This document shows positions 19,135-49,795 of a DNA stretch of 64,000 nt, one piece after another. The DNA lies in the NCBI GenBank assembly GCA_014729085.1, contig WJKM01000004.1, positions 68,345 through 132,344 on the forward strand, in the 5' to 3' direction. Position 1 is the stretch's first letter. Each line of letters begins with the position of its first letter. A model generated the notes under the pieces. The model was not told the origin of the DNA. It worked only from the letters and a program-made list of their open reading frames with translations, and did not search any database. Origin of the DNA: Candidatus Dojkabacteria bacterium (lineage in GTDB: Bacteria; Patescibacteriota; Dojkabacteria; B142; WJKM01). A program made the translations under genes and the position numbers.

Positions 19135-19680
19135 ATGGAAAGTCTTACAGATTATAATCCATTTGGAGACTACGACAATGATGGTATCAGTAATATAGAA
19201 GAATGGTTAGGAGTAAATATTGAAGGATATGGACATATTACAACTAATTGGAGAGAAGAAGATACGGATAAAGATGGATTAAATGATGGAGAAGAGCGAG
19301 ATCTTGGGACTAACCCTAGAAACCCAGACAGTCATTTAAGCGGTATTCTTGATGGATATCAAGGAGGAAAATTTGGTGAAATCGATATTGATAAATATAA
19401 CCAATTTACTCAAATAACTATTGAGGGCCAAACATATTCCGAGTTCGCAGCTGAATTAATCTCAGAAGAATCCTTAAACTCACCTTTACATCTATCCAGA
19501 AGTGATTCTGGAATAGAGTCAGGTATACAAACCATTGATCCAGTAGCATGTATTGCAAATAATGGATTTACTGATTTATGGGAAATATGGGCCAATCAGG
19601 ATGGTGGTAGATATATTGATAAGTTTGATTTTAATGGAGATGGAGAAGTAACTATTGAGGATTTATTTACCGATTATTAA
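19135..19680 (+). CDS. hypothetical protein with calcium-binding-type D-x-D-x-DG repeats
   Basis: DYDNDGISNIEE, DTDKDGLNDGEE and DFNGDGEVTIED resemble thrombospondin-type-3 or dockerin-like Ca-binding loops. Its 3' end overlaps the convergent gene by 14 nt. Confidence 0.35.
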   Translation: MESLTDYNPFGDYDNDGISNIEEWLGVNIEGYGHITTNWREEDTDKDGLNDGEERDLGTNPRNPDSHLSGILDGYQGGKFGEIDIDKYNQFTQITIEGQTYSEFAAELISEESLNSPLHLSRSDSGIESGIQTIDPVACIANNGFTDLWEIWANQDGGRYIDKFDFNGDGEVTIEDLFTDY

Positions 19681-21763
19681 AAGCTTGAGCTCTCTTAGAA
19701 TACGCAATGATTCTAATCTCTTCATTTGAAAATACAACCTCCCCTAAGTCTGTAATCTTGTCTATTTGAAGAAGATCGCCGTATCTTGTCCTCTCACTTT
19801 GTCCTAGAATTATGTAATCAATTTCATAATTATTCAACAATTCAACTTTCTTATCCATCTCCAACCCAGTAAAAAATTGCCTTACATCTTCTTTCCTACT
19901 TCCTAGATTCTCATCGCTTCCTTGCCATGTCCATTCATGTCCGTACCATCCAAGCGGAGTAGGCCAACCTAAGAAAGTCGAAAAAAAATTATTATCTTTG
20001 AAGCTATCTCCCTCTGCTTCCATTATATGACGAACTTTATCATCTGAAGGAAGCTTATGCCTTACTTGTTTTAAATAAAGGTAACCTTCAAAATCTTCTG
20101 GATATTTATTCTTCCACCAATCCAACCCCCTGCTTATTCCTATAAACTCTTTGGAAGGAGGATAAGCCTGCTCAACAGCTTTGATTGGATATAAGACTTG
20201 TACGACAGTTACAAACCATAATATGATTATAGATAAATAACCCCAGATTTTTTTATATTTCTTAACAATAAGTATTATTGCCAAAGGTCCTAGTGTTAAC
20301 CCCATCCATAACCAAATTTGGATAGAAATTTTGTTATATGTATTTGCACGAAAATGTTCTCCTTCGGTTAAGATATCTTTAACATAAAAAATCTCCATAA
20401 AAATCCAGAAAAATAAAGATAACAGAAAAATAAATAAAGGAAACAATTTAATATTAGAAAGCTTTCCTTCTTTGATATATTTATATACAATTTTTGGATA
20501 ATTCAAGAAGTAGACAATGAATAAAAGTAGAAACGGTCCCCATAGAGCAAGCCATTTTAAAACTGGAGAAATTTTCTTTACAATACCAAATCCACTAATA
20601 GGGGCTTTGAAAAAAATAGACCATGGTAAAGTTAAACCATATGAAAATATAATCATAAAAATTAAAGTCAGAAGAGATTTCAATACATTTTTTCTAATAG
20701 ATTTTCTATATCTAATTATCATGGAACTAACTAGTAAAGCTCCAATTGTCACTACATCCCAAGAATTAAGCATATAGGAAATTCCCAGTACAAAACAGGA
20801 AATATAAACATATTTGTTTTTTAAATCAAAGTTTCTTACTCTATCTATCCAAATATGAATACATATAGATACACCAAATATACCTGTAAGAAGCCCCCAG
20901 ACTTGAGGGTGAAGATCTGATACTAAAAAACCATAAAACGGCATTTCATGAATTGCTCCGGGTATAAATCTAGTAGGATCTGCGTACCAATATGAAGGCT
21001 TCGAATAATTTAAGAAAAGATATTGGAAATAAGAATAAAGCCAAATTAATGTGTGAAAACTACCCGCAAACATCACAAAAAATATACTCCCCACACCAGC
21101 CAAACCAGCCTTTAAATTACTAGCTGATGATTTTTTGTATAAATATTTAAATAAATCAAAACCAAACCTATATACATTAATTCCAACAATTCCAAATATC
21201 CAAATTATAAGTACAAAAAACCCTGGTACCGTAGGAATAAATGTCAATGATAGGACAACATAGCCAATATAATGTCCAAAATAATAATAATTTAAAATTT
21301 CACCTCCAAACCATATATCATAAAGGGGTAGCTCATTTGTATTAAACAATGATTGAATAAATCCGAAATCCATAAATCTTTCAATTTGGTATATTTCGCT
21401 TCCATGCCCTCTGACCCAATATAAAAATCCAATTAATAGTAAAAAAAGTATTTGAATGAAAGCTACTTGATGCCAATTTATTTCAGATATTTTGATATTA
21501 TTAAACTTTTCTTTAATCAATAAATTAATAAATAGCCAAAATACAACTATCAATAAAATTGAAAATAATGTATTGGGTAATATTTTTAAAGATACTAAGA
21601 AAAATGCAATATAAGAAATTGCTATCCAACCAAATATATGGGAAAGACTATATCCATTATCTGACAACTTACGGAAAAAGAGGTTACTTATAGGCCAACT
21701 AATTAAGCCAACAATAAAATTTACAAAGAAAAGTGAACCTAAATATACTATATCTAAAATCAT
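19667..21763 (-). CDS. large polytopic membrane protein with C-terminal extracytoplasmic domain (possible GT-C-fold glycosyltransferase or DUF2298-like)
   Basis: 698 aa. About 14 TM helices are followed by a ~180-aa soluble C-terminal domain. This architecture recalls ArnT/PMT/oligosaccharyltransferase-type proteins. No motif-level proof. Confidence 0.4.
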   Translation of the reverse strand: MILDIVYLGSLFFVNFIVGLISWPISNLFFRKLSDNGYSLSHIFGWIAISYIAFFLVSLKILPNTLFSILLIVVFWLFINLLIKEKFNNIKISEINWHQVAFIQILFLLLIGFLYWVRGHGSEIYQIERFMDFGFIQSLFNTNELPLYDIWFGGEILNYYYFGHYIGYVVLSLTFIPTVPGFFVLIIWIFGIVGINVYRFGFDLFKYLYKKSSASNLKAGLAGVGSIFFVMFAGSFHTLIWLYSYFQYLFLNYSKPSYWYADPTRFIPGAIHEMPFYGFLVSDLHPQVWGLLTGIFGVSICIHIWIDRVRNFDLKNKYVYISCFVLGISYMLNSWDVVTIGALLVSSMIIRYRKSIRKNVLKSLLTLIFMIIFSYGLTLPWSIFFKAPISGFGIVKKISPVLKWLALWGPFLLLFIVYFLNYPKIVYKYIKEGKLSNIKLFPLFIFLLSLFFWIFMEIFYVKDILTEGEHFRANTYNKISIQIWLWMGLTLGPLAIILIVKKYKKIWGYLSIIILWFVTVVQVLYPIKAVEQAYPPSKEFIGISRGLDWWKNKYPEDFEGYLYLKQVRHKLPSDDKVRHIMEAEGDSFKDNNFFSTFLGWPTPLGWYGHEWTWQGSDENLGSRKEDVRQFFTGLEMDKKVELLNNYEIDYIILGQSERTRYGDLLQIDKITDLGEVVFSNEEIRIIAYSKRAQAFNNR

Positions 21764-21860
21764 ATAAATGTAGAGTTTAATATTTCAAGTCAGGAAAAAA
21801 ATTCAAAGCTATAAAATTATTTAATATTAAAAACTGCAAATCAAAAATATAAAATAATAA

Positions 21861-22346
21861 TTAAGGCACTGGCATACTAAATCCATTGTCAGAGCCCTCA
21901 AGCTCAATTAGTAGTTGTTTATGAATTCTATCATAGCATATACTAAGCTCTTTCGGATTTGTCTCTCTACTAGTAATTGGATTACATGTACCAGAAACTG
22001 GATTAATTTTTCCTCTATTATCTGCAGTTCCAACTAAACGAAAATATTTTGTATCAAATTTCGCTACAAAATCACCTGTACAACAGCATCCAGAGATGGG
22101 TCCCATGTATATCGATATATGACCCCTAACACCACTTGAACCAAAACATTGGGGTGTTTGCATTGTATTTGCCTGTGCATCTGCCATAACTAATATTATG
22201 TCCTCCACTGCTTTTCGTCGTTTTGTGTCCCTTGCATTTCTTTGCACGATATTTATTCCATATGCTGCAATAGAAATCAACACAGCAATTATTGCCATCG
22301 CAACTAAAAGCTCTACTAGCGAAAAAGCTTTCTTAGTAAGTTTCAT
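21861..22346 (-). CDS. type IV pilin-like protein (prepilin-type N-terminal cleavage/methylation domain), Cys-rich C-terminus
   Basis: MKLTKKAFSLVELLVAMAIIAVLISIAAYG is a class III signal (G/F-S-L-V-E). The start was set at the internal ATG (22346) rather than the ORF-track start 22418, because the upstream 24 codons lack support and the paralog starts at the equivalent ATG. The C-terminal region has 8 Cys (..SGCCCTGDF..). Confidence 0.7.
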   Translation of the reverse strand: MKLTKKAFSLVELLVAMAIIAVLISIAAYGINIVQRNARDTKRRKAVEDIILVMADAQANTMQTPQCFGSSGVRGHISIYMGPISGCCCTGDFVAKFDTKYFRLVGTADNRGKINPVSGTCNPITSRETNPKELSICYDRIHKQLLIELEGSDNGFSMPVP

Positions 22347-22465
22347 TTTATTAATAAAATAATTGTTTAGTAAAATATAACAAAAATTTCGTACTTTGCT
22401 ATTTGACGAAAAATCCAAGCACTTGAGCAGAAATCAGTGCCTGGACTCAACTTTTTCTAATGTAA

Positions 22466-22590
22466 TTCTACTCGAAAATCTCTTTGATTATATTTACCGT
22501 TTTTTCTTTGTCTTTATGAGGATTTTCAACTCAATCACTCCACCTGTACTATATTTTTGAATCTCTTTAACTAATCTGATACTCTCAGTA
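22466..22590 (-). pseudogene. decayed fragment of the htrA 3' end (PDZ C-terminus), carried in the tandem duplication
   Basis: About 80% nt identity to 23180-23300, the 3' end of the HtrA gene. It includes the duplicated terminator hairpin at 22415-22444 and has no upstream ORF. Confidence 0.55.
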
Positions 22591-22594
22591 AATT

Positions 22595-23056
22595 TTAAAG
22601 ACTGACTACATAACCATATCCTCCTAGTTCAGATGCTTCTAATCTTGCACAAATTAATAAATTCTGAAAATCCATCCCAATAGCAACATTATCTCTGCTT
22701 GGTCTCTTAGATAAGAAATCTCCTTGATCGGAGCATTCATTACCTGAAGTTCCCGCTCTAAACCATTGCAGGTCCATACCCTTTACTTCATATTCAGCAA
22801 CTTCCTGGCCTTGAATATAGAAAGTAATTGAATTTTCGCTCTCACTTTTAGTTGCGTTATCAGGATACATGAAATGGTTGGTTTGTATATCATGTATTGT
22901 TAAGATGAGATCTTCAACAATTTTTTTTCTTTTAAGATCACGAGCATTACGTTGAACAATTTGAATACCATACGCAGCAATGGAAATTAAAACCGCAATA
23001 ATTGCCATTGCAACCAAAAGCTCCACTAATGAAAAAGCTTTCTTAGTAAGTTTCAT
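22595..23056 (-). CDS. type IV pilin-like protein (prepilin-type N-terminal domain), paralog 2
   Basis: The N-terminal 40 aa are almost identical to the pilin at 21861-22346 (MKLTKKAFSLVELLVAMAIIAVLISIAAYGIQIVQRNARD). The C-terminal region is divergent. Confidence 0.7.
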   Translation of the reverse strand: MKLTKKAFSLVELLVAMAIIAVLISIAAYGIQIVQRNARDLKRKKIVEDLILTIHDIQTNHFMYPDNATKSESENSITFYIQGQEVAEYEVKGMDLQWFRAGTSGNECSDQGDFLSKRPSRDNVAIGMDFQNLLICARLEASELGGYGYVVSL

Positions 23057-23118
23057 TTTATTAATAAAACATTTTATTTAATAAAATATAACAAAAATTT
23101 CAGTACTTTGCTATTAGA

Positions 23119-23157
23119 CCAAAAATCCAAGCACTTGAGGAGAAATTAGTGCTTGGA
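23119..23157 (-). terminator. Rho-independent terminator of htrA; a duplicated copy lies at 22408-22446
   Basis: Minus-strand ccaagcact-(12 nt)-agtgcttgg followed by attttt. The copy at 22415-22444 has one G-U pair (ccaggcact...agtgcttgg). Confidence 0.5.
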
Positions 23158-23179
23158 CTCAACTTTTTCTAATTTAATT

Positions 23180-24382
23180 CTACTCGTAAGCCTCCAAAGT
23201 AACATTTACGGTTTTTTCTTCGCCTTTATGAAGAATTTTCAACTCAACCACTTCGCCTACACTATATTTTTGAATCTCCCTATCTAATCGGGCATTCTCA
23301 TCAATTTTTTTTCCATTAATTTCAAGAATAATGTCATTTTCTTGAATTCCAGCTTTATCTGCAGGACCACCTGGAATAACTGCCAACTCTTCTGGAGTTT
23401 CTCCACGTATTACAAGAGCTCCATAATCTACCTTTAGATTATTTGCTTCTTGCAATTCCGGTGTTACCGGAACATATCTTACACCTATATAAGGCCGGAC
23501 AATTTTTCCATGCTCTTTGACAGATTCGACTACCTTTTGAACACTATTTGAAGGAATTGCGAATCCTATATTTTCAGCTTGAGCCATTGCAACATTCATA
23601 CCTATTACATTTCCAGAAAGATCGAGTAGAGGACCGCCTGAATTACCAGGATTAATTGAAGCATCTGTCTGGATTACCCCCGTCAAAGTTTCTGCTTTTC
23701 CAGTTGTTCGGGATCCTGCTGTAATTGATCTAGCAAGTCCGGAAATAATTCCTGAACTTACCGAATTCGAAAATTGGCCAAGTGCATTTCCAATTGCTAC
23801 TACTTTTTGTCCAACCTTAAGATTATCCGAATCACCAAAACTAAGGTAATTTAAATCATTTCGGGCAACCTTGATGACAGCAATATCCATAAGCGGATCA
23901 CGTGCTAAAATCTCTGCATCGATTTTATCTCCATCATTAAAAACAACTGTATAAGAAGCTTCCTCGTCTTGTACGACATGTTTATTAGTAACAATGTATC
24001 CGTCGCTTGATACAATAAAACCAGTCCCAGCACCTACCTCTTGCTCTTCCTCCCCAATTTGTCTTCGGCCCTTTCTCCGAAAAAAATAATCAAAAAAATC
24101 ATCTCCAAACGGAGAAGGATTGTAGTAAAATTCTTCATAGACAGGTAAATCTTTTGTGACAATTATACTCACAACAGCATCTTGGGAATTTTCTACTACT
24201 TCTACAACTGCATCATTACTATCTACAATTTTTAAATCTGTTGAAAGGTTACCATTTTCACCGTTTCTATTCATTTCATATTTTGTATATGCTACACCTG
24301 CGATAAGTCCGGAAAACCCAGACACAAAATTTGTAACAAGAATAACTATAACTAGAAACAGTAAATACTTTTTTTTCTTCAT
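23180..24382 (-). CDS. htrA: HtrA/DegP-family serine endopeptidase with C-terminal PDZ domain
   Basis: Signal/TM anchor, then a trypsin-like domain: GTGFIVSSDGYIVTNKHVV (His region), a D-containing segment, and GNSGGPLLDLSGNVIGMNVA (catalytic Ser). The PDZ region is ...GALVIRG...GGPADKAGIQENDIILEINGKKI. Confidence 0.85.
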   Translation of the reverse strand: MKKKKYLLFLVIVILVTNFVSGFSGLIAGVAYTKYEMNRNGENGNLSTDLKIVDSNDAVVEVVENSQDAVVSIIVTKDLPVYEEFYYNPSPFGDDFFDYFFRRKGRRQIGEEEQEVGAGTGFIVSSDGYIVTNKHVVQDEEASYTVVFNDGDKIDAEILARDPLMDIAVIKVARNDLNYLSFGDSDNLKVGQKVVAIGNALGQFSNSVSSGIISGLARSITAGSRTTGKAETLTGVIQTDASINPGNSGGPLLDLSGNVIGMNVAMAQAENIGFAIPSNSVQKVVESVKEHGKIVRPYIGVRYVPVTPELQEANNLKVDYGALVIRGETPEELAVIPGGPADKAGIQENDIILEINGKKIDENARLDREIQKYSVGEVVELKILHKGEEKTVNVTLEAYE

Positions 24383-24576
24383 ATAAATTCAGATTAATAA
24401 GTAAACTATTAAAAATAATTTAAAAAACTACTTTAATAAAATTATTTTACTAGTAATAATTTTTAGGTTAAACTTTTTATGTACTATTTATAATGATAAA
24501 TTTGTTATTAAACATTAACTCAACCTATCAAGAGTTAAATATTTTTATAACTATATCATTCTGATATGAAAATAAT

Positions 24577-25215
24577 ATGAAACTACTAAAAGGAACAGAA
24601 AAATTAGGACAATATAATAACAAAGTGGTTTGCATTAATTGGGACAACTTTCTGAATGATTTTGAATCCAGATTCAATTCCTATCAGTTTAAAAAATCAC
24701 TTTGTAAATTTACTCTACTGATCTCTATTATCTTATTATGTCTATTACTTTTCTTAGAGATCACTACCGGACGGATTATTTTTATTCAAGGAGAAGCCTT
24801 TACTTTTCAGAATAGTCTAATATTAATTTCGATAAATCTTCTACTGTTTTCGATTTATTTTAATAATAAAGTACACACTCCAAAAAATTTATTGACATTA
24901 TCAGCTCATAACGAGCAGGTTGTAAATTTGGAAAAATTTATAAATATTTCCGCTAATAAAATCATCTCTGAAATTTATAATTCGATCACTGGTGAGGAAA
25001 TTAACCTATTGAAACAGTTGGTTAGTCAAGACTCTAAAATACCATATTCAATTAGAAAGAAAATTCAAGGATTACCTTTGCATAGAATAAATGATCGAAG
25101 TCTATGGCTTAAACAGCTCCTACTGGTGTGCTATAAAACTGCCTTAGAAAACAAATTAAACCACATTGATCAGTCAGTGCTTGCTTTCAGTTTACTTAAT
25201 CATCAAGAGTTGTAA
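24577..25215 (+). CDS. hypothetical membrane protein
   Basis: 212 aa with two or three hydrophobic helices and no recognisable motifs. Confidence 0.3.
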   Translation: MKLLKGTEKLGQYNNKVVCINWDNFLNDFESRFNSYQFKKSLCKFTLLISIILLCLLLFLEITTGRIIFIQGEAFTFQNSLILISINLLLFSIYFNNKVHTPKNLLTLSAHNEQVVNLEKFINISANKIISEIYNSITGEEINLLKQLVSQDSKIPYSIRKKIQGLPLHRINDRSLWLKQLLLVCYKTALENKLNHIDQSVLAFSLLNHQEL

Positions 25216-48403: not shown

Positions 48404-49795
48404 CTATTTTTTAGTTTTCTTTGATTTTACTATCTTAATCATTTCCGTTATTGATTTTTTAAATTCGTTTTGCGAATATGTCTTATTGGCTGTATTTTCC
48501 GGGTGATGTATTGAGTGTCTTATATAAGTTGATAATGAAACTGATTCGTTACGTTTCTTTTTTTCGTTATACCAAGTTTTAGTTTTTGGTAGTTTTTTTA
48601 AGTCTGTCCTATACTTCCCTTCTATATACCCGTATAACTCATTATGAAATTCTACTGTAGGTATGTCAAACGCGTAATAATTCACTTCTCCCCAAGATGG
48701 GCTCCAAGGAAATAAATTTTCCTGTGTATCTTTGATATTCTTATACTTAATGATGCCCTTACTATCCTTTGAAAGTAAATATATTACTGTATTATCATCT
48801 TGAAGATGTTGCTTGAATAAATATGGAGAATGTGATGCCATAAAAATTTGCCCGTTTTGTTCTCCTTTTTGATCATTAAGTAGTTCTTTGAAATAATTGA
48901 GTAATTGAATTTGAGTTTGTGGATTTAAACTTTTTTCAGGTTCATCTATAGATACTATTACTCCTTCTGAAAATTCTTGATTCTGAAGAACTTGTATAGT
49001 CCTGTGTACCAAACTTTTTTCTCCTGAACTTAGATTTTCTAAACTTGAATCTTTCCCATTCTCTTCAAAATAAACTTGCCAACCATCTTTAGTTTCCCGA
49101 AGTTCTTTAAGATTCTTACCATAGGGAAGAATCTTTTCAAACGCTTTGCGTAATCTATTCCACCTTTTATCAATTACATCTTTAGGTATCTTCTTTTTAG
49201 GATGATCTATAATCCAGTTTCGAAGATCTTGATTATCGTGAAATTGTGTATTTATTAATAGTTGATGATTCCGAGCACCTAATTGACTATCATGGCTCAT
49301 AGCTGTAAAATTTTCTTTATCAAAAGAATCCTTTGTAATGCTAGAAACTTTCTTCAATCTATAATTAGGCTCTGCTCCAGAAAAAATGAATTTAAAATTC
49401 TGAACAAATTCTCCACTAATCCTTCCAAGATCAAGGTCAGTGTATTCATGAGAATTATCGTTGCTGAAAGAAATTTTTCTTCCCTCATTAGACATAATCA
49501 GCTTAATTGTTTTACCTTTAATTCCCTTATGAAACCATCCAACCGTTGTGATATTTTTCAAATTTTCGCTCTCATGCTTATTTAATTGGAATTCATACAT
49601 TCGTATTTCATCGCTAGCCGTAGGTATACCATTGTGCAAGAATCTGTCTATTATGTTTTCAAATAGATATGTCTTTCCAACACCATTATTGCCTATAAGG
49701 AGTACATTATCTGCAATTTTCCCATTAAAATTGAAATCAAGGTCCAGATCTCCAATAACGGGATTATTTTTAACTTCAATTTTTGAAATCTTCAT
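48404..49795 (-). CDS. ABC-type / AAA_15-21-like ATPase (OLD/Gabija-GajA/ABC-3C-type N-terminal ATPase), candidate defence ATPase
   Basis: Walker A is LLIGNNGVGKTY near the N-terminus. The ABC signature is LSSGEKSLVHRT. Walker B is VIVSIDEPEKSLNP. The D/H-loop region is IFMASHSPY. About 130 aa at the C-terminus are unassigned. Confidence 0.6.
   Translation of the reverse strand: MKISKIEVKNNPVIGDLDLDFNFNGKIADNVLLIGNNGVGKTYLFENIIDRFLHNGIPTASDEIRMYEFQLNKHESENLKNITTVGWFHKGIKGKTIKLIMSNEGRKISFSNDNSHEYTDLDLGRISGEFVQNFKFIFSGAEPNYRLKKVSSITKDSFDKENFTAMSHDSQLGARNHQLLINTQFHDNQDLRNWIIDHPKKKIPKDVIDKRWNRLRKAFEKILPYGKNLKELRETKDGWQVYFEENGKDSSLENLSSGEKSLVHRTIQVLQNQEFSEGVIVSIDEPEKSLNPQTQIQLLNYFKELLNDQKGEQNGQIFMASHSPYLFKQHLQDDNTVIYLLSKDSKGIIKYKNIKDTQENLFPWSPSWGEVNYYAFDIPTVEFHNELYGYIEGKYRTDLKKLPKTKTWYNEKKKRNESVSLSTYIRHSIHHPENTANKTYSQNEFKKSITEMIKIVKSKKTKK

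What the first reader, a model, noticed from the sequence alone, without database searches (positions are those of the whole stretch)
21861..23300. Tandem segmental duplication creating two pilin paralogs and a fossil htrA 3' end
The block [htrA 3' end + htrA terminator + intergenic promoter + first ~120 nt of the pilin gene] occurs twice: at 22940-23300 (true) and at 22230-22590 (copy). In the copy the htrA piece has decayed (about 80% identity, no ORF). The two pilin genes share a nearly identical N-terminal 40 aa (class III signal plus hydrophobic helix) but have unrelated C-terminal globular parts, one with 8 Cys. This looks like pilin diversification by duplication that retains the shared promoter and terminator, which is typical of variable surface-filament loci.
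Basis: seen in the sequence. Interest (0 to 1): 0.55.

Follow-up and report, generated by a model that had tools for sequence, protein, structure and literature searches.

The report
Copied regulatory block heads two pilin genes
In a Candidatus Dojkabacteria (CPR) genome, a ~280-base block (tail of the htrA protease gene, its terminator, a promoter and the pilin leader peptide) has been copied in front of a second, anciently diverged pilus-subunit gene; the repeat is real, but it is an ordinary kind of pilin-locus rearrangement.

Summary
The repeat is real: 22234-22596 aligns with 22944-23308 at local score 203.5, against 11.1 +/- 1.2 for shuffles. All genes are on the minus strand, in the order htrA, pilin 1 (153 aa), a decayed htrA 3' fragment, pilin 2 (161 aa), DUF2298. 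Both pilins carry the prepilin N-terminal methylation motif.

- The C-terminal domains are not unrelated. Both match a profile built from other family members' C-termini (E about 1e-11 to 1e-13). Both have the same predicted helix-plus-seven-strand layout. They share only 18% identity.
- The pilin genes are not products of the same recent duplication. Third codon positions show 0/8 differences in codons 1-8 and 33/52 (63%, near the 68% of random codon pairing) from codon 9 on. The htrA fragment differs at only 6/42 third positions.

Only about 277 nt are recently shared: the htrA tail, terminator, promoter, 5'UTR and leader peptide. The mature pilin bodies are old paralogs. The same genome has at least three more, and a relative has htrA directly next to DUF2298.

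Pilin 2 has 6 cysteines, not 8. An assembly artefact is very unlikely, because the copies differ by 10-24% and the fragment is frameshifted. This is a new member of a known kind, of modest interest.

The parts
23180..24382 (-). htrA/DegP-family serine protease gene (400 aa), intact
   Evidence: Trypsin_2 E 7e-36 and PDZ_2 E 2e-15. TIGR02037 degP_htrA_DO E 1e-92, below that model's cutoff. 100% identical to NCBI MBD3362244.1, Candidatus Dojkabacteria.
23183..23309 (-). Last 42 codons of htrA; the source copy of the duplicated htrA tail and the outer edge of the proximal repeat
   Evidence: Aligns to 22470-22596 at 76% identity. Sliding-window identity falls to 53% above about 23310.
23121..23160 (-). 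Proximal intrinsic-terminator-like hairpin (10-13 bp stem, 12-nt loop) plus T-tract, about 20 nt after the htrA stop
   Evidence: MFE -24.1 kcal/mol, z -3.1. Missed by the scan tool because its loop limit is 3-8 nt. The 18-nt core occurs exactly twice in the window.
23085..23113 (-). Proximal promoter-like site: TAGCAA, 17-nt spacer, TGT-TATATT (extended -10), about 30 nt upstream of the pilin 1 ATG
   Evidence: Read from the sequence. Both hexamers are unchanged in the distal copy. The site is below the scan tool's -35 threshold, so it is inferred and not demonstrated.
22595..23056 (-). Pilin 1 (153 aa): leader MKLTKKA, cleavage before F8, E+5; Cys108 and Cys136
   Evidence: PF07963 and TIGR02532. 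AF2 pLDDT 89 with helix 10-61 and 7 strands. Equals MBD3362243.1. Orthologue-like relatives P0002 and P0003 are 57% and 53% identical.
23033..23309 (-). Proximal copy of the recently shared block (htrA tail + stop + terminator + promoter/5'UTR + pilin codons 1-8)
   Evidence: Change point in third-position differences after codon 8: 0/8 then 33/52, permutation p 0.007.
22323..22596 (-). Distal copy of the recently shared block
22470..22596 (-). Fossil htrA 3' end: 76% identical, a 1-nt deletion causing a frameshift, no ORF, GC 0.28 against 0.36 in the true copy; starts at the pilin 1 stop codon
   Evidence: Differences by htrA codon position are 9/42, 12/41 and 6/42, with no third-position excess, so constraint is relaxed in the fossil.
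22409..22448 (-). Distal copy of the terminator hairpin plus T-tract; it now lies about 150 nt downstream of the pilin 1 stop
   Evidence: MFE -21.4 kcal/mol, z -1.9. The only stem change, A to G, keeps a G.U pair.
22374..22401 (-). Distal promoter-like site: TAGCAA, 16-nt spacer, TGT-TATATT
   Evidence: The spacer is 1 nt shorter than in the proximal copy.
21861..22346 (-). Pilin 2 (161 aa): same leader and alpha1 helix; 6 Cys including a CCC run at 87-89
   Evidence: PF07963 and TIGR02532. AF2 pLDDT 79 with the same order of elements as pilin 1. Equals MBD3362242.1. No relative above 46% identity over at least 75% of its length.
19667..21763 (-). DUF2298 / YYY-domain membrane protein; it lies directly next to htrA in a relative
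   Evidence: PF10060 E 2e-64. 45% identical from residue 1 to the gene that directly follows htrA in L040.

Best explanation
Shown: two intact, same-strand prepilin-type genes lie between htrA and DUF2298 in a Candidatus Dojkabacteria genome. Each gene is preceded by the same ~277-nt block. The block consists of the last 127 nt of htrA, the stop region, a hairpin with a T-tract, a promoter-like TAGCAA-N16/17-TGnTATATT site, a short 5'UTR, and the eight leader codons MKLTKKA|F. The two block copies differ by 10-24%. From codon 9 onward the pilin genes are saturated at synonymous sites, and they are only 18% identical in the globular domain, although both belong to one Dojkabacteria pilin family. 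So the block is young and the mature-pilin bodies are old paralogs. The locus is a recombinational mosaic whose inner breakpoint lies at the leader/mature junction, the start of the KKAFSLVELLV coding motif.

Inferred origin (favoured route, about 40% of the total): two old paralogs already sat in tandem with a short spacer, as in the related locus L108. A break at the 5' end of pilin 2 was repaired by invading the homologous N-terminal coding stretch of pilin 1. Synthesis then copied upstream through the leader, promoter, terminator and 127 nt of htrA. The new strand was joined illegitimately just after the pilin 1 stop codon.

Inferred function: the copy gives pilin 1 a terminator and gives pilin 2 the same promoter, 5'UTR and leader. 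This makes two insulated, co-regulated monocistronic units. Their products share the processing site and filament-core helix but present different surfaces. The htrA fragment is a non-functional by-product.
For: - The repeat is real and significant.
- Both products carry PF07963/TIGR02532 and give lollipop-like AF2 models.
- Third-position differences are 0/8 in codons 1-8 and 33/52 after, with a change point after codon 8 (permutation p 0.007). Pilin codons 9-31 differ at 13/23 third positions, against 6/42 for htrA third positions (Fisher p 0.0006).
- In the mature N-terminus, pilin 1 and pilin 2 differ synonymously in 14/23 codons. That equals the difference from pilins of other genomes (12-13/22). 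True recent duplicates, L039 a and b, differ in 4/23.
- C-terminal codon-aligned nucleotide differences equal random pairing.
- The pilin 1 C-terminus is closer to P0002 (49%) and P0003 (37%) from other organisms than to pilin 2 (18%).
- Both C-termini match the family C-terminal HMM.
- The same genome encodes at least three more paralogs with the same mature N-terminus.
- The relative L040 has htrA directly followed by DUF2298.
- The intergenic block is more conserved than the fossil: 113/127 against 97/128, p 0.008. The hairpin is retained through a G.U pair.
- There is an independent parallel in L039. Pilins b and c share a 378-nt terminator-plus-promoter spacer (95%) and the leader, with the breakpoint near codons 10-13.
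Against: - There is no expression, processing or filament data.
- The promoter assignment rests on an extended -10 and fails the scan tool's -35 criterion.
- The breakpoint estimate rests on 60 third positions.
- The favoured repair route is not distinguishable here from a whole-unit duplication followed by body replacement, or from an old duplication plus recent gene conversion.
- DNA of the other paralog loci of this genome, and of any close relative, was not retrievable: the best HtrA relative is 60% identical.
- No T4P machinery genes lie in the window.
Confidence: 0.7

Rival explanations
1. Two-step origin. First, a plain 713-nt tandem duplication of [htrA tail + intergenic region + whole pilin]. 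Later, the mature-coding part of one copy was replaced by recombination with a diverged allele from another strain or with a paralog elsewhere in the genome. The 5' crossover fell in the conserved N-terminal coding motif.
For: - The 710-713 nt period equals exactly one unit, and the fossil starts at the pilin 1 stop codon.
- At least three donor-type paralogs exist in the same genome.
- Whole-unit pilin duplications do occur in relatives: L039 a/b, the L108 pair and the L109 pair.
Against: - It needs two events where one suffices.
- The 3' crossover needs homology downstream of the pilin. That exists only if the donor was an allele at the same locus, and the nearest relative has no pilin there.
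- It is not otherwise distinguishable from the favoured route with the present data.
Confidence: 0.25
2. An old whole-unit tandem duplication, with the regulatory and leader block kept similar by recent or recurrent gene conversion (concerted evolution of the expression signals).
For: - Identity peaks in the intergenic region and leader (90-100%) and falls off on both sides.
- The intergenic region is more conserved than the fossil.
Against: - If the duplication were as old as the pilin bodies, the unselected htrA fragment would have lost the homology needed to anchor conversion on that side.
- Conversion tracts should also run into the 80%-identical N-terminal coding region, yet synonymous sites there are saturated from codon 9.
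Confidence: 0.12
3. One reading: one recent tandem duplication produced both pilin genes, and their C-terminal domains then diverged in place by point mutation under diversifying selection.
For: - The tandem layout, the shared N-terminus, and family-level homology of the C-termini.
- L039 a and b show that recent duplicates do diverge fastest in the globular domain.
Against: - Positive selection cannot saturate synonymous sites. Third positions differ at 63% in pilin codons 9-60 but at 14% in the adjacent htrA tail.
- The pilin 1 C-terminus is nearer to proteins of other organisms than to pilin 2.
Confidence: 0.06
4. Assembly artefact: a collapsed or expanded repeat, or a chimera of two strains that carry different pilin alleles downstream of htrA.
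For: - The genome is a metagenome-assembled genome.
- In relatives, contigs break right after htrA.
Against: - The copies differ by 10-24%, so they would not be confused by an assembler.
- The distal htrA piece is frameshifted, AT-decayed and full of non-synonymous changes, so it is not a second strain's working allele.
- No shared k-mer-length sequence links the pilin 1 end to mid-htrA.
Confidence: 0.03

Closest known systems
Streptococcus sanguinis PilE1/PilE2, two major pilins forming a heteropolymeric type IV pilus (PMC10628169; PDB 8PFB)
   Same: - Two pilin genes of one family in one genome.
- Their products share the alpha1 core, so they could co-assemble while presenting a mosaic surface.
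- PilE1 is the best solved-structure sequence hit of this family's profile (8pfb_G, E 1.3e-4).
   Different: [quoted passage not shown] Here the globular domains are only 18% identical.
- The genes here lie away from any T4P machinery gene in the window, between htrA and DUF2298.
- Co-assembly is untested.
Orphan pilins of Saccharibacteria (PilJ and PilK of Nanosynbacter lyticus TM7x; PMC11623550)
   Same: - A CPR bacterium with several pilin loci, including pilin genes outside the assembly-machinery clusters.
- Low G+A+S+T content (26-29%), like the TM7x orphan pilins as described in that paper.
   Different: - A different CPR class (Dojkabacteria).
- No sequence relationship was shown beyond the N-terminal motif.
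- No duplicated regulatory block is described for TM7x.
Neisseria pilE/pilS antigenic variation by gene conversion (from my own knowledge)
   Same: Recombination shuffles variable pilin parts while the conserved N-terminal coding region stays constant.
   Different: The partition is the opposite. pilS copies lack the promoter and the 5' coding region and are silent. Here both copies carry promoter-like, leader and full N-terminal sequences and are intact ORFs. No evidence of ongoing conversion was found.
Tandem pilin arrays in other Dojkabacteria
   Same: - The same pilin family, or its N-terminus.
- Adjacent paralogs.
- In L039 a terminator-plus-promoter spacer and the leader are shared between neighbours, with a breakpoint at the same KKAFSLVELLV motif.
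   Different: - L039 is explained by one unequal crossover between neighbouring N-terminal motifs and contains no fragment of a flanking gene.
- L108 and L109 have 21-36 nt spacers, consistent with operons.
- Only 1 of 37 adjacent pilin pairs surveyed shares upstream DNA.

Membership tests
Type IV pilin / prepilin-type N-terminal cleavage-methylation proteins (PF07963, TIGR02532) | Class III signal peptide: short basic leader, small residue at -1, F at +1, E at +5, about 20 hydrophobic residues | tested here: met
   MKLTKKA|FSLVELLVAMAIIAVLISIAAYG in both proteins. PF07963 E 1e-7 and 1.4e-7, above cutoff; TIGR02532 E 1e-7 and 4e-7. Residue -1 is Ala, not the usual Gly; other family members have Gly.
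Type IV pilin / prepilin-type N-terminal cleavage-methylation proteins (PF07963, TIGR02532) | Lollipop architecture: a long N-terminal alpha1 helix packed on a beta-sheet head | tested here: met
   The AF2 models have helix 10-61 followed by 7 strands in both proteins, with pLDDT 89 and 79. Foldseek against PDB gave no significant match; the best pilin hit was 1ay2, E 1.3.
Type IV pilin / prepilin-type N-terminal cleavage-methylation proteins (PF07963, TIGR02532) | C-terminal disulfide-bonded region | tested here: inconclusive
   One Cys column is invariant (C108 in pilin 1, C121 in pilin 2), and a second Cys lies 16-28 residues later in both. Disulfide formation cannot be shown here.
Type IV pilin / prepilin-type N-terminal cleavage-methylation proteins (PF07963, TIGR02532) | Processing by a prepilin peptidase and assembly by PilB/PilC-type machinery | not testable with these tools
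   No such genes lie in the 64-kb window. More distant Dojkabacteria pilin pairs lie in PilB-PilC-pilin-pilin-PilD clusters.
Simple recent tandem segmental duplication of a whole gene unit | Two adjacent direct copies with a constant period and a truncated flanking-gene fragment at the junction | tested here: met
   Period 710-713 nt. The htrA tail fragment abuts the pilin 1 stop codon.
Simple recent tandem segmental duplication of a whole gene unit | Comparable neutral divergence along the whole repeated unit | tested here: not met
   Third-position differences are 14% in the htrA tail, 0% in pilin codons 1-8 and 63% in codons 9-60. The C-terminal part is at random level.
pilE/pilS-type silent-cassette antigenic variation | Donor copies lack the promoter and 5' coding region | tested here: not met
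   Both copies have the promoter-like site, ATG, leader and a full-length ORF.
Two-major-pilin heteropolymeric pilus (PilE1/PilE2 type) | Paralogs highly similar along their whole length and encoded in the pilus gene cluster | tested here: not met
   83% identity in aa 1-60 but 18% in the rest. No pilus machinery genes are nearby.
Rho-independent (intrinsic) terminator | G+C-containing hairpin immediately followed by a U-tract downstream of a stop codon | tested here: met
   A 10-13 bp stem, 12-nt loop and U5. MFE -24.1 kcal/mol (z -3.1) and -21.4 kcal/mol (z -1.9). Pairing is preserved in the copy. Termination itself is not demonstrated.

The most novel reading that the evidence does not exclude
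In Dojkabacteria the leader/mature junction of this pilin family (the KKAFSLVELLV coding motif) may be a recurrent recombination hotspot. Whole expression modules (terminator + promoter + 5'UTR + leader) would then be moved onto different mature-pilin bodies, and bodies exchanged between loci. That would be a modular pilin-shuffling system that keeps every copy expressed, the opposite design to silent-cassette systems. It could tune host attachment in these episymbionts.
Probability: 0.12. Interest if true: 0.55.

Novelty: new member of a known kind. Interest (0 to 1): 0.3.

Why it matters
Type IV pili are the best-supported host-attachment organelles of CPR/Patescibacteria (PMC11623550). How these tiny genomes diversify pilins is little studied.

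This locus is a clean, datable example. An unselected gene fragment sits next to the pilin genes and acts as an internal neutral clock. That clock shows that the expression signals and the leader were copied recently onto a much older paralog.

It is also a cautionary case. An identical 31-residue pilin N-terminus is not evidence of recent duplication, because purifying selection on the filament core maintains it.

The practical consequences are small. Both genes are already annotated as prepilin-type proteins in the public record, and tandem pilin paralogs are commonplace.

Tried and rejected
- Exact look-ups of pilin 1, pilin 2 and P0006 in the contig index found nothing. DNA of the other paralog loci of this genome could therefore not be compared.
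- The HtrA scan of genome contigs gave only relatives of 57% identity or less, none with a pilin motif nearby.
- The metagenome scan with the family alignment returned mostly proteins similar only in the N-terminus. It was useful only for a survey of adjacent pairs.
- The HtrA protein search found no relative above 60% identity apart from the source itself. Pilin copy number in close relatives is therefore untestable here.
- The promoter/terminator scan found neither the hairpin (its loop limit is 8 nt) nor the proximal promoter-like site.
- Rfam found no family in 21500-24700 at E up to 1, so a known riboswitch or sRNA in the conserved intergenic block is rejected.
- An unequal crossover between pilin N-terminal motifs, which explains L039, was rejected as the sole origin here. 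It cannot place an htrA fragment between the genes and would predict three motif copies.
- An ancient tandem htrA-pilin duplication followed by deletion of most of htrA2 was rejected, because the fragment is only 24% diverged.
Full report
**Observation**

All relevant genes are on the minus strand. In the direction of transcription the order is:
- htrA (23180-24382, 400 aa)
- pilin 1 (22595-23056, 153 aa)
- a non-coding stretch
- pilin 2 (21861-22346, 161 aa)
- a DUF2298 membrane-protein gene (19667-21763)

The repeat finder reports three co-linear direct-repeat pieces, 22191-22596 against 22901-23309, with a 710-713 nt period. The best local alignment is 22234-22596 against 22944-23308. Its score is 203.5, against 11.1 +/- 1.2 for shuffled sequence, and the block has no third copy in the window.

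**Anatomy of the repeat**

| Segment | Result |
|---|---|
| Last 127 nt of htrA vs its copy | 76% identity |
| Stop region, hairpin and T-tract | 90% identity |
| Remaining intergenic sequence up to the ATG | 87.5% identity |
| Pilin codons 1-31 | 0 amino-acid, 14 synonymous differences |
| Pilin codons 32-60 | 10 amino-acid differences |
| Beyond codon 60 | random-level nucleotide differences |

- The copied htrA tail still reads KFTESIRLVKEIQKYSTGGVIELKI, then a frameshift, then LHKDKEKTVNIIKEIFE*. The true tail reads KIDENARLDREIQKYSVGEVVELKILHKGEEKTVNVTLEAYE*.
- The copy has a 1-nt deletion and no ORF. Its GC content is 0.28, against 0.36 in the true tail.
- Its differences are spread over all three codon positions (9/42, 12/41, 6/42), so it is a decaying fragment.
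- It starts directly at the pilin 1 stop codon. Pilin 1 ends at the same alignment column as its closest relatives P0002 and P0003.

**Signals in the intergenic block**

- A hairpin (10-13 bp stem, 12-nt loop, followed by U5) lies about 20 nt after the htrA stop. Its MFE is -24.1 kcal/mol with z -3.1.
- The distal copy keeps the stem. Its only stem change, A to G, makes a G.U pair (-21.4 kcal/mol, z -1.9).
- The scan tool missed the hairpin because its loop limit is 8 nt.
- Between the T-tract and the ATG, both copies keep TAGCAA, a 17- or 16-nt spacer, and TGT-TATATT. I read this as a weak -35 with an extended -10. This is an inference.
- The intergenic block is significantly better conserved than the htrA fragment: 113/127 against 97/128, Fisher p 0.008. 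This argues that both copies of the signals are under selection.
- No Rfam family matches.

**What the genes are**

- Both products carry the prepilin N-terminal cleavage/methylation motif (PF07963, TIGR02532). They have a 7-residue leader, Ala at -1, Phe at +1 and Glu at +5.
- The AF2 models show helix 10-61 plus seven strands, in the same order in both (pLDDT 89 and 79).
- HtrA is an ordinary Trypsin_2 + PDZ protease.
- The three proteins are identical to NCBI entries MBD3362242-44 of a Candidatus Dojkabacteria (WS6, CPR) metagenome-assembled genome. Both pilins are already annotated there as prepilin-type proteins.
- No pilus-machinery gene lies in the window.

**The C-terminal domains are homologous**

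- Database searches found one small, Dojkabacteria-restricted family whose members align with both pilins over 92-100% of their length.
- I built a profile from the C-terminal parts (aa 61 to the end) of family members, leaving out both window pilins. It hits pilin 1 at E 4e-11 to 1.5e-20 and pilin 2 at E 7e-12 to 8e-13.
- An invariant Cys and a conserved LEG-type motif are shared.
- The two C-termini are nevertheless only 18% identical. The pilin 1 C-terminus is 49% and 37% identical to P0002 and P0003 from other organisms.
- Pilin 2 has 6 Cys, not 8.

**The pilin bodies are much older than the repeated block**

This is the main new result.
- Third-codon-position differences between the two pilin genes are 0/8 in codons 1-8 and 33/52 (63%) in codons 9-60. 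Random codon pairing gives 68%.
- The best change point is after codon 8 (permutation p 0.007).
- Codons 9-31 differ at 13/23 third positions. The htrA tail differs at 6/42 third positions (p 0.0006), and the whole fragment at 27/125 positions (p 0.0014).
- In the 23 codons after Phe+1, pilin 1 and pilin 2 differ synonymously in 14/23 codons. That is as much as either differs from pilins of different genera (11-14/22). Genuine recent duplicates, L039 a and b, differ in 4/23.
- The identical 31-residue N-terminus therefore reflects purifying selection on the leader and filament-core helix. Three further paralogs of the same genome on other contigs (P0006, P0007, P0009; accession series MBD33622xx-33630xx) have a near-identical mature N-terminus.
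- The recently shared DNA is only about 277 nt: 23033-23309 and 22323-22596.

**Context in relatives**

- No close relative exists in the searched collections. The best other HtrA is 60% identical.
- In L040 the syntenic neighbourhood is RND transporter, membrane-fusion protein, htrA, DUF2298. It has htrA directly followed by DUF2298, separated by a 157-nt spacer with its own terminator. The DUF2298 proteins are 45% identical from residue 1.
- The pilin pair is therefore lineage-specific at this site.
- In another relative an IS110 transposase gene follows htrA. Two other contigs end right after htrA.
- A contig from the same sample as L040 carries three tandem family pilins elsewhere (L039). 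Its neighbours b and c share a 378-nt spacer (95% identity) and the leader, with a breakpoint near codons 10-13. The spacer begins with a terminator hairpin and ends with TTGCAA-N18-TATTAT. Pilin b has the leader of c and the body of a, which is the signature of one unequal crossover in the KKAFSLVELLV motif.
- The syntenic locus L108 has the three pilins only 32-36 nt apart.
- Among 37 adjacent pilin pairs in all fetched loci, only L039 b/c share upstream DNA.

**Interpretation**

Shown: the locus is a mosaic, with a young regulatory-plus-leader block on two old paralog bodies.

Inferred origin: I favour a single repair event.
1. The event was primed by homology in the N-terminal coding motif of an adjacent older paralog.
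2. It copied upstream sequence as far as 127 nt into htrA.
3. It ended in an illegitimate join just after the pilin 1 stop.

Two other routes cannot be separated from this with the present data. One is a whole-unit duplication followed by replacement of one body. The other is an old duplication plus recent conversion of the 5' block. In-place divergence after a simple duplication is contradicted by the synonymous-site data.

An assembly artefact is very unlikely. The copies differ by 10-24%, and the distal htrA piece is a frameshifted, AT-decayed fragment rather than a second working allele.

Inferred function: the copy supplies a terminator for pilin 1 and an identical promoter, 5'UTR and leader for pilin 2. 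This gives two insulated, co-regulated monocistronic pilin genes. Their products share the processing site and core helix but expose different heads.

**Comparison with known systems**

- The nearest functional analogue is the two-major-pilin pilus of S. sanguinis (PMC10628169). PilE1 is also the best PDB sequence hit of the family profile (8pfb_G, E 1.3e-4). Those paralogs are similar along their whole length and lie in the pilus cluster, which is not the case here.
- Orphan pilins outside machinery loci are described in Saccharibacteria (PMC11623550).
- The Neisseria pilE/pilS design is the opposite, with silent, promoter-less copies; this comparison rests on my own knowledge.

**Verdict**

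This is a new member of a known kind, tandem type IV pilin paralogs shaped by duplication and recombination, with a tidy internal clock but modest general interest.

Noticed in passing
L039:5001-7198: Another Dojkabacteria contig has three tandem family pilins. The 378-nt spacers a-b and b-c are 95% identical. Each starts with a hairpin plus T9 and ends with TTGCAA-N18-TATTAT. Pilin b has the leader of c and the body of a, which suggests an unequal crossover in the N-terminal motif.
   Followed up: partly
L039:5591-5788 and L039:6404-6610 (minus strand): A 65- or 68-aa ORF on the opposite strand is conserved, with its first 49 aa identical, in both copies of the 378-nt spacer. It has no Pfam match. 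Whether it is a real small gene is unknown.
   Followed up: partly
L042:1860-2270; ends of L041 and L043: In relatives, an IS110-family transposase gene (PF01548, E 1e-16) lies directly downstream of htrA. Two other contigs break 50-190 nt after htrA. The region downstream of htrA looks variable across this clade.
   Followed up: partly
window:55037-57778 (minus strand): Two adjacent 455- and 453-aa ORFs have similar N-termini and no solid Pfam match (weak Hexokinase_2, E 2e-4, on one). They may be another tandem paralog pair.
   Followed up: no
window:52374-53720 (minus strand): A full-length serpin (PF00079, E 2e-109) in a CPR genome.
   Followed up: no
window:36187-41477 (minus strand): Four consecutive ORFs of 358-420 aa have no Pfam hit at E up to 1e-4. 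Whether they are related to each other was not checked.
   Followed up: no
window:21861-22418 (minus strand): The longest mechanical ORF for pilin 2 starts at a TTG (22418) inside the duplicated intergenic block. Homology with pilin 1 and the family places the real start at the ATG at 22346.
   Followed up: yes
window:23070-23081 (minus strand), proximal 5'UTR: The proximal leader region contains a mini-ORF, ATG TTT TAT TAA, 12 nt upstream of the pilin 1 ATG. It is absent from the distal copy and is probably incidental.
   Followed up: no
window:42987-44744 and 48404-49795 (minus strand): A HerA/DUF87-type ATPase and an AAA_15/AAA_21 ATPase lie among short unannotated ORFs. This may be a defence or mobile region.
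   Followed up: no
L109:164-2016 and the P0029 locus (no DNA retrieved): More distant Dojkabacteria pilin pairs, similar only in the N-terminus, sit in PilB-PilC-pilin-pilin-prepilin peptidase clusters. The L109 pair is itself a recent tandem duplicate.
   Followed up: partly
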